A stretch of DNA of 64,000 nucleotides from Escherichia coli (GTDB taxonomy: Bacteria > Pseudomonadota > Gammaproteobacteria > Enterobacterales > Enterobacteriaceae): the NCBI RefSeq assembly GCF_003018235.1, contig NZ_CP027437.1; one strand, given 5' to 3'. Each line of letters opens with the position of its first letter. The first letter of the stretch is position 1. Made by a program: the position numbers. This document shows, in pieces, positions 18,501 to 21,500 of the stretch.

Positions 18501-21500
18501 GTGATGCGTGATCTGATAAAGCAGCATCGTTCTCCCATGGAGCTGATGACGATGCTGCGGTGACGTGCGCTTAAACGGGCTGCCCCTGATGCGACATCCG
18601 CGTCGCCAGCGGTAGCCAGCACAGCACGATCAACAATCCCATTAAGGTCATCAACAACCCCAGGCTGCCCTGACCGGTTTGCGGCAACATCGCAGAGAGC
18701 GACGCCAGCACGCCGGAACCAATGTTTTGTAGACCGCCGACCAGCGCGCCAGCCGTGCCCGCCAGGAAAGGGAACGGCTCCATCGCGCCGCTGGTCGCCA
18801 GCGGAAACAGCATCCCGGCACCGAAAAAGAACAGCGCGGCGGGAACGAGCAGCGTCCAGACATTCATCACGCCAAACCAGTCGGGGATCCACATCAGCAA
18901 GCCAGCCAGCAGGCAGCAGATAACCGACTGCCACATTAACGTTGAGAAGCGTTTATTAGGACGTCCGGCAAACCATGCCCCAAAAAATGCCGCCGGAATC
19001 GGCAGAATAAACAAAATACTGACCGTCATACTGCTCAGCCCTAACACCGCGCCCATCAGCACGCCGGAGCAGGCTTCAAAGGCGGCAATCCCGGCCAGAC
19101 CGCCAATCAGCATCAGCAAATAACAGTTAAAACCGCTGTTACCGAAAAGCGTTTTATAACTGGTAAGCAGGCGTGTGCGCGGTGCGTCGACCGGACGCGT
19201 TTCTGGCATCCAGCGGGCCATACTGAAGGTCACACCGGCACAAAGTACCAACAAAAAGAGATAACAGGCGCGCCAGTTCCACATCGTATCCAGCAGACCG
19301 CCGATTAGCGGTGCGAGCAACGGACTGACAAGAATTCCCATGTTTAACAGGCTATTAGCATGGCGCAACTGTGTCCGTTCATATAAATCACGCGGCAAAG
19401 TACGCGCCATTACGCCGCCAACGCCGGTGCCCATCCCCTGCATCGCGCTGGCGGCAATCAATACTGTCAAACTGGAGGTCGTGACCGCGACCAGCGTTGC
19501 CAGCATAAAAATGGACATTCCGACGAGGATCACCGGTCGGCGACCCACACGGTCGGAAATCGGGCCATAAAACAGCTGTGAGACACCGTAAGTCAGCAGA
19601 TAAGCGCCCATTACGCTCTGCACCGCCCCTTCACGGACGTTGAGATCGCGCGCCATATCGGCAATAGCTGGAATATAAATGGTTTGCGCCATCTGACCGA
19701 CGGCCACGAGTAATACCAACATCAATAACAAATTGACGTTTCTATGCCTTTTCATTATCACGGATGCTTTTATAAAAATAATTAGAATAAGTCACTACGC
19801 ATTCCCATAAATGCGGGAGAGGAATCTATCACATTGATAAATGTTAGCCAGATATACGCCAGGAATGGGGAATTGTTTAGCGGCAGAATATGTAAACAAA
19901 AGCGGCAATAAATGTTGCCGGGAGGGATTACGTGCGAACAGTAACCCTCTCCCTGAAAGGACGAGGGGGAAACCACCGTTCCCTTTCAGAAAATGAGCTA
20001 AACATTGCACGGGACGGTCCCCTCGCCCCTCTGGGGAGAGGGCTAGGGTGAGGGGCACAGGCAGCGCAGGTGCAAACATTCTGCTGGTAGAAGAAGCCCC
20101 CAACTCCAACTCACACGCTAAATATAAAAGGGGAGCGGTTACCCGCTCCCCTTTAGTGCGACTTGAATCTGAATTACTTCAGGTATTTCAGAACAGCATC
20201 AAGCAGTTGCAGTGCTGCAACAATGAGTTTGAGGATAAGAATGGCGATATCCACCAGGCTCATACGCGTCTCCTGTGGTTCAGGAGCACTGCCAGCTGAC
20301 GTACCTTTCCGCTGCCTGTTGCCAGCTGTTGTGCACGCGGTATCTCAAGGAGAAACGTTGTGCTTGTTGACATAACACAGTGTGCTCACGCGGGGTTAAG
20401 GCGCTGACGGCACCACCCGTTTCAGCCAGGACTTAGTGCGCCGGGTAACGATGCGGCCCCCACATAACACATTGCGTACAGTGATATTATAGAAGTTTAC
20501 TGTATAAATAAACAGTAATATTTGGACAAAACGCAAACTGTGAACGATACTCAACTATGCACTAAATACGTCAAAATTCGTGCCGAAATTGCGCGTTCTG
20601 TGCGGAACACGTATACTTTCTGTGTTGACATAATACAGTGTGCTTTGCGGTTACCAGCCGCAGGCGACTGACGAAACCTCGCTCCGGCGGGGTTTTTTGT
20701 TACCTGCAATTTAGTTCAAAACGTGATCAACCCCTCAATTTTCCCTTGCTGAAAAATTTTCCATTGTCTCCCCTGTAAAGCTGTGCTTGTATAAATATTG
20801 TTAAACACAAAACCAACAAGGTCCCCAATGACTACTTCCATGCTCAACGCAAAACTACTACCAACTGCGCCATCCGCCGCAGTGGTCGTCGTGCGTGTGG
20901 TGGTGGTCGTCGGCAATGCGCCGTAGGGACTGGAACAACACACGATTCCAAAACCCCGCCGGCGCAAACCGGGCGGGGTTTTTCGTTTAAGCACCTCCCG
21001 GAAAGTCGGCCCAGAAGAAAAGGACTGGAGCATGGCAAGTTCGGGCACAACATCGACGCGTAAGCGCTTTACCGGCGCAGAATTTATCGTTCATTTCCTG
21101 GAACAGCAGGGCATTAAGATTGTGACGGGCATTCCGGGCGGTTCTATCCTGCCTGTTTACGATGCCTTAAGCCAAAGCACGCAAATCCGCCATATTCTGG
21201 CTCGCCATGAACAGGGCGCGGGGTTTATCGCTCAGGGAATGGCGCGCACCGACGGTAAACCGGCGGTCTGTATGGCCTGTAGCGGACCGGGTGCGACTAA
21301 CCTGGTGACCGCCATTGCCGATGCGCGGCTGGACTCCATCCCGCTGATTTGCATCACCGGTCAGGTTCCTGCCTCGATGATTGGCACCGACGCCTTCCAG
21401 GAAGTGGACACCTACGGCATCTCTATCCCCATCACCAAACACAACTATCTGGTCAGACATATCGAAGAACTCCCGCAGGTCATGAGCGATGCCTTCCGCA

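What the first reader, a model, noticed from the sequence alone, without database searches (positions are those of the whole stretch)
19944..20064. Cluster of GC-rich palindromes downstream of emrD
Between emrD and tisB there are nested inverted repeats (CTGAAAGG…CCCTTTCAG; CCCTCT-GGGG-AGAGGG followed by GGGTGAGGGG). They may be a terminator for emrD or a short dispersed repeat; I cannot place them in a named family from memory.
Basis: seen in the sequence. Interest (0 to 1): 0.2.

Follow-up and report, generated by a model that had tools for sequence, protein, structure and literature searches.

The report
BoxC repeat pair upstream of emrD
The GC-rich palindromes are an inverted pair of BoxC (also called PIT or TMECO) repeats, a long-catalogued dispersed intergenic repeat of E. 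coli whose function is unknown; they lie in a strain-variable gap downstream of tisB and upstream of emrD, are not an emrD terminator, and are ordinary.

Summary
The palindromes are real and at the stated coordinates, but the gene geometry was misread. emrD is on the minus strand and starts at 19755, so the element is 190 bp upstream of emrD and downstream of the tisB terminator. It cannot terminate emrD.

Bases 20020-20055 match the published BoxC/PIT/TMECO pattern exactly and are 35/36 identical to four K-12 copies. This same locus is already listed in Holder et al. 2015 (Table S8, strain SE11). Bases 19945-19967 are a second, inverted copy that has lost its third G-block.

The two copies with their family-typical linkers form a 172-bp mosaic cassette (19929-20100). 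The arms are dispersed (median 15 places per E. coli genome). The spacer and right flank are single-copy and present in about 1,500 of 5,426 genomes.

K-12, O157 and BL21 carry a REP element at the same spot. Ten genomes carry the cassette with an 87-bp deletion between direct G-blocks. 1,059 genomes lack tisB/istR altogether.

No U-tract, promoter-like site or Rfam family fits.

Most likely it is a passive, structure-prone repeat in a transcriptionally insulated gap whose main visible effect is local rearrangement. Already known; low interest.

The parts
19929..20105 (.). Strain-variable cassette (about 172-177 bp; the right junction is ambiguous within CCAACT/CCAAC). K-12, O157 and BL21 carry a 38-40 bp REP-like sequence here instead.
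   Evidence: Alignments. The length difference is 139 bp. The right flank 20056-20108 is single-copy in 1509/5426 genomes.
19932..19944 (-). Fragment of the family's tail-to-tail linker. On the minus strand it reads TTACTGTTCGCAC, 12/13 identical to TTAATGTTCGCAC, which follows the type-B copy near fepB in K-12.
   Evidence: Flank comparison of K-12 copies (row L137-).
19945..19967 (-). Truncated inverted BoxC copy. On the minus strand it reads CCCTCGTCC-TTTCA-GGGAGAGGG (blocks 1 and 2, 22/23 to K-12 TMECO #10). Loop 2 and the third G-block (12 nt) are missing. The window carries a minority G>A change at 19961.
   Evidence: The consensus G at this position is seen in strain 88-3493.
19968..20019 (.). 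Head-to-head linker between the C-rich ends. Its right part (about 19992-20019, ..ATTGCACGGGACGGTC) is the conserved upstream flank of type-A copies. The stretch as a whole is unique to this locus.
   Evidence: Single copy, 1497/5426 genomes, all at least 99% identical. Flank consensus (the window matches 48 of 53 conserved columns). Same design as the K-12 lldD-trmL pair, which has a 59-nt linker.
20020..20055 (+). Complete BoxC/PIT/TMECO copy: CCCTCGCCC-CTCTG-GGGAGAGGG-CTA-GGGTGAGGG-G. It is 'type A with one mismatch', with loop 2 CTA instead of TTA.
   Evidence: Exact match to the published pattern, 0.00 expected. 35/36 to K-12 copies #9, #16, #19 and #22. The same locus is listed as TMECO #188 of strain SE11 in Table S8. 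Triad rule: 8/9 Watson-Crick plus 9/9 third-strand positions.
20056..20080 (+). Tail-to-tail linker that in K-12 pairs leads to an inverted type-B partner. Counted from 20055 it is 21/26 identical to the fepB-locus linker. No partner follows here.
   Evidence: rows L137+, L005-, L138-.
20081..20111 (.). Unique remainder of the cassette (CTGCTGGTAGAAGAAGCCCCCAACT) and the right junction, with a tandem CCAACT CCAACT at 20100-20111.
   Evidence: (D9).
20127..20154 (-). Context: the intrinsic terminator of tisB (12-bp stem, T-tract). It bounds the variable gap on the right.
   Evidence: DNA fold -15.4 kcal/mol, z -6.6.
19903..19920 (-). Context: a second terminator-like hairpin on the minus strand (followed by CTTTTGTTTA), overlapping the 3' end of ysdE. 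It bounds the variable gap on the left.
   Evidence: z -3.8. Conserved in all alleles.

Best explanation
The feature is an inverted, head-to-head pair of BoxC (= PIT = TMECO) repeats. One copy is complete and type-A-like on the plus strand (20020-20055). The other is type-B-like on the minus strand (19945-19967) and has lost loop 2 and its third G-block. Both are embedded with the family's typical flanks and linkers in a 172-bp mosaic cassette.

The cassette occupies the gap between the tisB terminator and a second hairpin upstream of emrD. Other E. coli lineages carry a REP element in that same gap.

How it works, as inference: it is a non-coding, structure-prone dispersed repeat with no demonstrable role for its neighbours. 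It is tolerated because the gap is transcriptionally insulated on the minus strand.

Its single strands can fold as hairpins or a cruciform, and the G-rich strand of the complete copy satisfies the purine-motif intrastrand-triplex rule. The visible consequence is local structural instability, that is, slippage or recombination between the repeated G/C blocks. Examples are the missing third block of the left copy, the 87-bp deletion allele, and the REP/BoxC/no-tisB allelic turnover at this site.
For: Identity:
- Exact match to the published TMECO pattern.
- 35/36 identity to four K-12 copies.
- This very locus is catalogued in Holder et al. Table S8.
- The arms are dispersed at a median of 15 places per genome, 74,391 chromosomal against 34 plasmid places.
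- The conserved upstream flank and tail linker are shared with K-12 copies.
- The inverted-pair design matches the K-12 lldD-trmL pair and the five K-12 pairs described in the paper.

Not functional for its neighbours:
- The cassette is present in only about 1,500 of 5,426 genomes.
- emrD, ysdE and tisB are intact in REP-allele strains.
- No terminator-like or promoter-like site lies inside it, and there is no Rfam family.
- The literature summary reports no promoter or terminator activity.

Instability:
- An 87-bp deletion allele lies between the direct repeats AGGG(C/T)GAGGGG, in 10 genomes. This reproduces the published 'palindrome effect'.
- The 12-nt loss of loop 2 plus block 3 lies between the directly repeated blocks 2 and 3.
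- Four alleles exist at one spot.

Structure:
- RNA folds of -75.8 and -69.2 kcal/mol, z -2.7 and -2.2.
- DNA fold z -2.9.
- The triad rule is met.
Against: - The biological role of BoxC is unresolved in the literature. Holder et al. could not detect the triplex in vivo by DMS footprinting or in duplex DNA, so the structural steps are inference.
- I have no transcript or expression data for this locus, so a cis effect on emrD, ysdE or tisB read-through is not excluded.
- I could not polarise the alleles (cassette gained or REP gained). The genome-contig scan stopped before reaching Enterobacteriaceae, and the IvbL look-up returned only E. coli-type loci.
- The palindrome by itself is only marginally better than shuffles (20 of 500).
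- How BoxC copies spread is unknown.
Confidence: 0.8

Rival explanations
1. Intrinsic terminator of emrD.
For: GC-rich stems exist.
Against: emrD is on the minus strand and starts at 19755. The element lies upstream of it, not downstream. No T-tract follows the stems, and the scan does not flag it.
Confidence: 0.01
2. An RNA-level element: a back-up terminator or 3'-end stabiliser. It would act on tisB read-through (minus strand) or on the ysdE transcript (plus strand), forming the long hairpin in RNA.
For: Both strands fold into a long hairpin (-75.8 and -69.2 kcal/mol). On the minus strand the truncated left copy is followed by TTACTGTT, 5 T in 8. In my crude gene calls for Archangium, Polaromonas and Hyphomicrobiales loci, the gene 5' of the motif was more often on the same strand (29 versus 7), though this rests on unreliable ORF calls.
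Against: It lies beyond a strong tisB terminator (z -6.6). It is not flagged as a terminator. PIT elements showed no terminator activity (Hoyne and Maher 2002, as summarised). The element is absent from most strains, which have the same neighbours. Holder et al. found no orientation bias in E. coli.
Confidence: 0.07
3. A miniature mobile element (MITE- or REPIN-like). The inverted pair with its linkers would be the unit that is copied by an unidentified enzyme and was inserted here, displacing or targeting the REP.
For: - TIR-like arms, 27 nt at 78%.
- Presence/absence polymorphism.
- Conserved flanks and linkers around copies, arguing for template copying rather than convergence.
- Inverted pairs recur in K-12 and in a Polaromonas genome, 5 tail-to-tail and 3 head-to-head.
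- The alternative allele is a REP, itself a RAYT-mobilised repeat.
Against: - No target-site duplication. The event is a replacement, not a clean insertion.
- The head-to-head linker and right flank are single-copy, so this composite has not been copied elsewhere in E. coli.
- No protein family is recurrently adjacent to the motif across taxa.
- Only 34 of 74,425 places are on plasmids.
Confidence: 0.1
4. A functional non-B DNA element (intrastrand triplex or G-quadruplex). It would modulate emrD upstream DNA topology or would be selected as a generator of local variability.
For: - The triad rule is satisfied.
- The G-strand also reads G4-AGA-G3-CTA-G3-TGA-G4, a canonical quadruplex pattern.
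- The triplex is stable in vitro, and TMECO loci are more variable than controls.
- Four alleles exist at this site.
Against: No in vivo triplex signal and no association with gene class or distance to ORFs. The variability can be a passive by-product. The element is 190 bp from the emrD start, and no promoter-like site is disrupted.
Confidence: 0.08
5. Chance palindromes in a G/C-tract-rich spacer.
For: Inverted-repeat quality is reached by 20 of 500 shuffles. The single copies fold only at z -1.1 to -1.4.
Against: The pattern match has 0.00 expected. There are about 15 copies per genome in 5,408 of 5,426 genomes. The family is published.
Confidence: 0.01

Closest known systems
BoxC / PIT element / TMECO (Bachellier et al. 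1990s survey; Hoyne et al. 2000; Hoyne and Maher 2002; Holder et al. 2015, PMC4666352)
   Same: The 36-nt three-block sequence. The intergenic, chromosomal, dispersed distribution. The inverted pairing of two subtypes. The degenerate or partly deleted copies and strain-to-strain variability. This locus is itself listed in the 2015 catalogue for strain SE11.
   Different: Loop 2 is CTA rather than the K-12 classes TTA (type A) or CCG (type B). The partner copy lacks its third block. The pair is head-to-head with a 52-nt unique linker, an arrangement seen only once in K-12 (lldD-trmL). The copy is absent from K-12 at this locus.
REP / BIME elements
   Same: Short GC-rich extragenic palindromes. 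Copies of two subtypes alternate in orientation and are separated by characteristic head-to-head and tail-to-tail linkers, giving a mosaic architecture. A REP occupies the very same site in K-12, O157 and BL21.
   Different: There is no sequence similarity to the REP consensus and no GTAG-type motif within the BoxC units. Copy number is far lower (about 15-25 against several hundred). No known RAYT-type partner, IHF site or gyrase-binding site has been described.
REPINs (REP doublets forming hairpins) and MITEs
   Same: An inverted doublet of a dispersed repeat that can fold into a long hairpin, with presence/absence polymorphism between strains.
   Different: No target-site duplication. The composite is not repeated as a unit. 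No associated transposase was found.
Rho-independent terminators
   Same: A GC-rich stem-loop located between genes, next to a genuine terminator.
   Different: No U-tract, the wrong side of emrD, and no terminator activity reported for the family.

Membership tests
BoxC / PIT / TMECO | Sequence pattern CCCTCNCCC-N3-6-GGGNGAGGG-N3-GGGNGAGGG[G/T/C/-] | tested here: met
   20020-20054 matches exactly, with 0.00 matches expected in shuffles. It is 35/36 to K-12 copies #9, #16, #19 and #22. The left copy (19945-19967, minus strand) meets only blocks 1 and 2.
BoxC / PIT / TMECO | Dispersed, multi-copy, chromosomal and intergenic | tested here: met
   5,408 of 5,426 genomes have matches at a median of 15 places. 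74,391 places are chromosomal and 34 are on plasmids. No annotated feature lies under the matches. Here it lies between ysdE and tisB.
BoxC / PIT / TMECO | Already catalogued as a TMECO locus | tested here: met
   Table S8 lists SE11 entry #188 at 4102670-4102635 with the CTA loop. Those coordinates fall between tisB and ysdE/emrD.
BoxC / PIT / TMECO | Loop 2 of class A (TTA) or class B (CCG) | tested here: inconclusive
   Loop 2 is CTA, one base from type A. The same CTA loop occurs 14-15 times in the published table.
BoxC / PIT / TMECO | Sequence obeys purine-motif intrastrand triplex rules (C:G*G, T:A*T and T:A*A triads) | tested here: met
   8/9 Watson-Crick pairs between blocks 1 and 2, and 9/9 allowed third-strand contacts between blocks 3 and 2. 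This corresponds to 'type A mm' in Table 1.
BoxC / PIT / TMECO | Physical formation of the triplex | not testable with these tools
   Shown in vitro for K-12 copies. Not detected in vivo or in duplex DNA.
BoxC / PIT / TMECO | Paired copies are inverted and combine a type-A with a type-B copy | tested here: inconclusive
   The copies are inverted. The left copy resembles type-B copies in loop 1 (TTTCA) and in its outer linker, 12/13. It has lost the loop 2 that defines the type.
Intrinsic terminator of emrD | Located downstream of the gene on its transcribed strand | tested here: not met
   emrD is at 18571-19755 on the minus strand, and the element lies upstream of its start.
Intrinsic terminator of emrD | GC-rich hairpin with a short loop, followed by a T/U-tract | tested here: not met
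   The scan flags 20154-20127 and 19920-19903 only.
REP / BIME | REP consensus palindrome (GTAG..CGGATAAG..CATCCG) | tested here: not met
   Present in the K-12 allele, GGTAGGGCGGATAAGATGCGTCAGCATCGCATCCGACA, at a median of 17 places per genome. It is absent from the window cassette.
MITE | Terminal inverted repeats plus target-site duplication, with the whole unit repeated | tested here: not met
   TIR-like arms are present. There is no duplication at the junctions. The spacer and flank are single-copy.
REPIN | Inverted repeat doublet with a cognate RAYT-type gene flanked by the repeat | tested here: inconclusive
   The doublet is present. No protein family recurs next to the motif across 10 bacterial genomes and 120 viral contigs. 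Only motif-adjacent DNA was sampled, not whole genomes.
Any Rfam RNA family | Covariance-model match at or above the gathering score | tested here: not met
   The only overlap is mir-1275 at 20.6 bits against a gathering score of 71, E 0.54, which is chance. istR nearby scores 148 bits.

The most novel reading that the evidence does not exclude
BoxC type-A and type-B units with their conserved head-to-head and tail-to-tail linkers would be copied as modules, forming a BIME/REPIN-like family of non-autonomous mobile DNA with an unidentified mobilising activity that competes with REPs for the same post-terminator sites.

The same 33-36-nt three-block motif, including the same 'one-mismatch' G/A/T variant, is amplified to dozens of copies in genomes labelled Polaromonas, Hyphomicrobiales, Archangium, Verrucomicrobia and others, and occurs in viral contigs. 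That would imply horizontal spread or a conserved structure-specific function rather than a passive enterobacterial relic.
Probability: 0.12. Interest if true: 0.5.

Novelty: already known. Interest (0 to 1): 0.12.

Why it matters
The main value is a correction. The 'unplaced' palindromes belong to a repeat family described since the 1990s, and this particular locus is already in a published catalogue. The proposed terminator role rests on a misread gene orientation.

The modest added value:
- A resolved anatomy: two subtypes, their linkers, and a lost third block.
- Population frequencies for four alleles at one spot next to the tisB/istR toxin-antitoxin locus.
- A clean example of the direct-repeat deletion ('palindrome effect') reported for this family.
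- The observation that a REP and a BoxC mosaic are alternative occupants of the same post-terminator gap.

None of this changes current understanding of emrD or tisB.

Tried and rejected
- **Rfam E-value scan of 19000-21500.** Nothing credible on the element.
- **Terminator and promoter scan.** Nothing inside the element.
- **Search of the window for further copies, up to 3 mismatches.** None.
- **Genome-contig scan with the TMECO pattern.** I had hoped to collect enterobacterial copies and outgroup loci.
- **IvbL exact-sequence look-up to reach outgroup species.** It returned only E. coli-type REP or tisB-less loci, so allele polarity remains open.
- **Crude ORF-based test of motif orientation relative to genes in other phyla.** Too noisy, with many spurious 'intragenic' calls in high-GC DNA.
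- **All-against-all BLASTP of 1,351 ORFs within 400 bp of motifs.** This looked for a recurrent partner gene, such as a RAYT-like transposase. The only clusters were among related viral contigs, with nothing across bacterial taxa.
- **Literature and supplement searches.** The combined search for 'Box C', REP, ERIC and RSA found nothing in the library. A supplement search by gene names found nothing. A search by the sequence string succeeded.
- **Possible REP remnant.** The GGTAG at 20086-20090 could be a remnant of the REP, but a 5-nt match is too weak to claim.
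Full report
**Setting**

The window is Escherichia coli. Bases 19400-20700 are 99.9% identical to strain K_EC180, and the 146-bp core is 100% identical to a set of swine ETEC/O139 genomes.

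Transferring the RefSeq annotation of the identical strain gives this map:

| Feature | Coordinates | Strand |
|---|---|---|
| emrD | 18571-19755 | minus |
| ysdE (small ORF) | 19837-19911 | plus |
| tisB | 20174-20263 | minus |
| istR | 20569-20698 | plus (Rfam, 148 bits) |
| ivbL-ilvB | further right | |

tisB and emrD are therefore co-directional on the minus strand, with tisB upstream. The finding (19944-20064) lies after the tisB terminator hairpin (20154-20127) and before a second terminator-like hairpin (19920-19903) that precedes the emrD upstream region. It is about 190 bp upstream of the emrD start, not downstream of emrD.

**Observation check**

- CTGAAAGG / CCTTTCAG at 19953-19960 and 19982-19989.
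- CCCTCT-GGGG-AGAGGG at 20027-20042.
- GGGTGAGGGG at 20046-20055, which is complementary to CCCCTCGCCC at 20019-20028.

A 27-nt, 78%-complementary inverted repeat (19942-19968 / 20019-20045) ties the two halves together.

As palindromes they are only modestly unusual for this composition:
- 20 of 500 dinucleotide shuffles reach the same inverted-repeat score.
- The whole cassette folds at -75.8 (minus strand) and -69.2 (plus strand) kcal/mol as RNA, with z -2.7 and -2.2.
- As DNA the fold has z -2.9.
- Each copy on its own reaches only z -1.1 to -1.4.

What puts the feature beyond chance is family membership, described next.

**Identification**

Bases 20020-20054 match the pattern CCCTCNCCC-N3-6-GGGNGAGGG-N3-GGGNGAGGG exactly, with 0.00 matches expected in shuffles. 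This pattern defines the element called:
- BoxC in the 1990s surveys of enterobacterial repeats,
- PIT (potential intrastrand triplex) element by Hoyne and Maher,
- TMECO by Holder et al. 2015 (PMC4666352).

The 36-mer differs by one base (loop 2 is CTA instead of TTA) from K-12 copies #9, #16, #19 and #22 of their Table 1. It belongs to their 'type A with one mismatch' class. By the triad rule, blocks 1 and 2 give 8/9 Watson-Crick pairs and block 3 gives 9/9 allowed third-strand contacts.

The CTA-loop copy is listed 14-15 times in their Supplementary Table S8. The SE11 entry (#188, 4102670-4102635) falls between tisB and ysdE/emrD, so this very locus is already catalogued.

In 5,426 complete E. 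coli genomes the arms recur at a median of 15 places per genome, almost exclusively on chromosomes (74,391 places against 34 on plasmids), and under no annotated feature. No Rfam family fits.

**Anatomy**

I compared the window with ten K-12 BoxC loci fetched by the published coordinates.

Type-A copies carry two conserved neighbours:
- an upstream flank (..GCGCAC....CGGTC);
- a tail linker of about 27 nt (GAACAGCCAGCACTGGTGCGAACATTAA). In four of the five K-12 pairs this linker leads to an inverted type-B copy.

The window's right copy has both. It matches 48 of 53 conserved columns, and its linker is 21/26 identical to the fepB locus. No partner follows it.

The window's left copy, read on the minus strand, is CCCTCGTCC-TTTCA-GGGAGAGGG. 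That is 22/23 to the first two blocks of K-12 #10. It is followed directly by TTACTGTTCGCAC, which is 12/13 identical to the linker that follows the third block of the type-B copy at fepB. So loop 2 plus block 3 (12 nt) have been lost between the directly repeated blocks 2 and 3.

The cassette therefore reads, left to right:

1. half tail-linker (19932-19944)
2. truncated B-like copy, minus strand (19945-19967)
3. 52-nt head-to-head linker (19968-20019)
4. complete A-like copy, plus strand (20020-20055)
5. tail linker (20056-20080)
6. 25 nt of unique sequence (20081-20105)

This is the same head-to-head design as the K-12 lldD-trmL pair, which has a 59-nt linker. The alternation of two subtypes with two linker kinds resembles the mosaic logic of BIMEs.

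**Population picture**

The head-to-head linker and the right flank are single-copy. They are present in 1,497 and 1,509 of 5,426 genomes respectively. So the composite is specific to this locus, and only its BoxC arms are dispersed. Four alleles exist at the spot:

| Allele | Genomes | Evidence |
|---|---|---|
| BoxC cassette | about 28% | |
| 38-40 bp REP-like sequence in its place (K-12, O157, BL21, THO-010) | about 2,650, by subtraction |; the REP sequence itself sits at a median of 17 places per genome |
| Cassette lacking 19958-20044 (87 bp) | 10 | |
| tisB/istR absent, with a degenerate REP at the junction right after 19922 | 1,059, including the type strain ATCC 11775 | |

The 87-bp deletion is an event between the direct repeats AGGG(C/T)GAGGGG, formed by the complement of left block 1 and by right block 3. 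It leaves a simple CCCTCTCCC-TGAAA-GGGTGAGGG hairpin. This is exactly the 'palindrome effect' that Holder et al. describe for inverted TMECO pairs.

The window's own version carries minority substitutions, for example A at 19961 where most cassettes have G.

**How it most likely works**

Shown:
- It is a BoxC pair.
- It is dispensable, since neighbours are intact in strains without it.
- It has no terminator or promoter signature.
- Its repeated blocks coincide with deletion end-points.

Taken from the literature:
- No triplex signal is seen in duplex DNA or in vivo.
- PIT elements show no promoter or terminator activity.
- TMECO loci are more rearranged between strains than control intergenic regions.

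Inferred: the element is a passive, structure-prone repeat sitting in a gap insulated by two hairpins on the minus strand. Its main effect is to promote slippage or illegitimate recombination between its G/C blocks when it is single-stranded. That accounts for the truncated left copy, the 87-bp deletion allele and the allelic turnover.

Rival readings are kept at low probability. They are an RNA 3'-end element, a MITE/REPIN-like mobile unit, and a selected non-B DNA regulator. Their tests are listed in the report sections. An emrD terminator is excluded by orientation.

**Wider distribution (side observation)**

By then it had already returned 120 stretches from ten genomes:

| Genome label | Copies |
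|---|---|
| Archangium | 41 |
| Polaromonas | 40, with 5 tail-to-tail and 3 head-to-head pairs |
| unclassified MAG GL140_5 | 28 |
| Verrucomicrobia | 8 |
| Hyphomicrobiales | 6 |
| Pseudomonadota MAG | 5 |
| Contendobacter | 3 |
| Armatimonadetes | 2 |
| Deltaproteobacteria MAG | 2 |
| Bacteroidaceae | 1 |

The same 'one-mismatch' variant (CCCTCGCCC / GGGAGAGGG / GGGTGAGGG) is found in E. coli, Polaromonas, Hyphomicrobiales, Contendobacter and GL140_5.

A scan of viral contigs also hit its limit at 120 stretches.

No protein family is recurrently adjacent to the motif across taxa. My crude orientation analysis was too noisy to use.

Holder et al. reported 3,610 copies in 262 proteobacterial genomes. 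The non-proteobacterial labels here are a small extension of that, but they rest on metagenome bins and truncated scans.

**Verdict**

- The family is BoxC/PIT/TMECO, and the locus itself is already catalogued, so novelty is 'already known'.
- Interest is low (0.12).
- The most novel reading not excluded is that BoxC modules are REPIN/BIME-like mobile DNA with cross-phylum spread. I give it about 12%.

Noticed in passing
window 19834-19839: The ysdE start codon is ATG in K-12 but ATA in the window and in O157, with an in-frame TTG just upstream at 19834. PGAP still annotates the same YsdE protein.
   Followed up: partly
window 19903-19920 (minus strand): A second terminator-like hairpin (CGGCAACATTTATTGCCG + CTTTTGTTTA, z -3.8) overlaps the 3' end of ysdE. 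It is conserved in all alleles. The variable gap lies exactly between it and the tisB terminator.
   Followed up: partly
window about 19922-20800; L127 1930-2270: The whole tisB/istR type I toxin-antitoxin module is absent from 1,059 of 5,426 complete E. coli genomes, including the type strain ATCC 11775. The junction lies right after 19922, and a degenerate REP sits at the junction.
   Followed up: partly
L007-L126 (genome contigs) and L139-L258 (viral contigs): The TMECO pattern is amplified to dozens of copies in metagenome-assembled genomes labelled Archangium, Polaromonas, Hyphomicrobiales, Verrucomicrobia and an unclassified bacterium. It also occurs in at least 120 stretches of IMG/VR contigs.
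   Followed up: partly
L007-L032 (MAG GL140_5): In this genome the motif sits inside two longer repeat subfamilies, each with about 25 nt of conserved flank on both sides: gataaaaagaacgttgttgccccct...ttgcgggctccgcccgcgttag and cacaataaaaaacaagttgtttgca...ttgtgggcttgcccacattgg. This suggests a larger repeated unit there.
   Followed up: no
window 20100-20111: A tandem CCAACT CCAACT lies at the right boundary of the cassette. K-12 has a single CCAAC there.
   Followed up: no
window 20020-20054: Block 1 (CCCTCGCCC) pairs with block 3 (GGGTGAGGG) at 9/9 if G-T wobble is allowed, better than with block 2 (8/9). In the perfect 'T' variant of other copies the preference is reversed. So the two flavours of the family favour different hairpins.
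   Followed up: partly
window 19795-20109 (minus strand) and 19932-20051 (plus strand): Mechanical ORFs of 104 aa and 39 aa run through the repeat, giving peptides such as PLTLALSPEGRGD. Such repeat-derived ORFs are not annotated in any of the matching RefSeq genomes.
   Followed up: no
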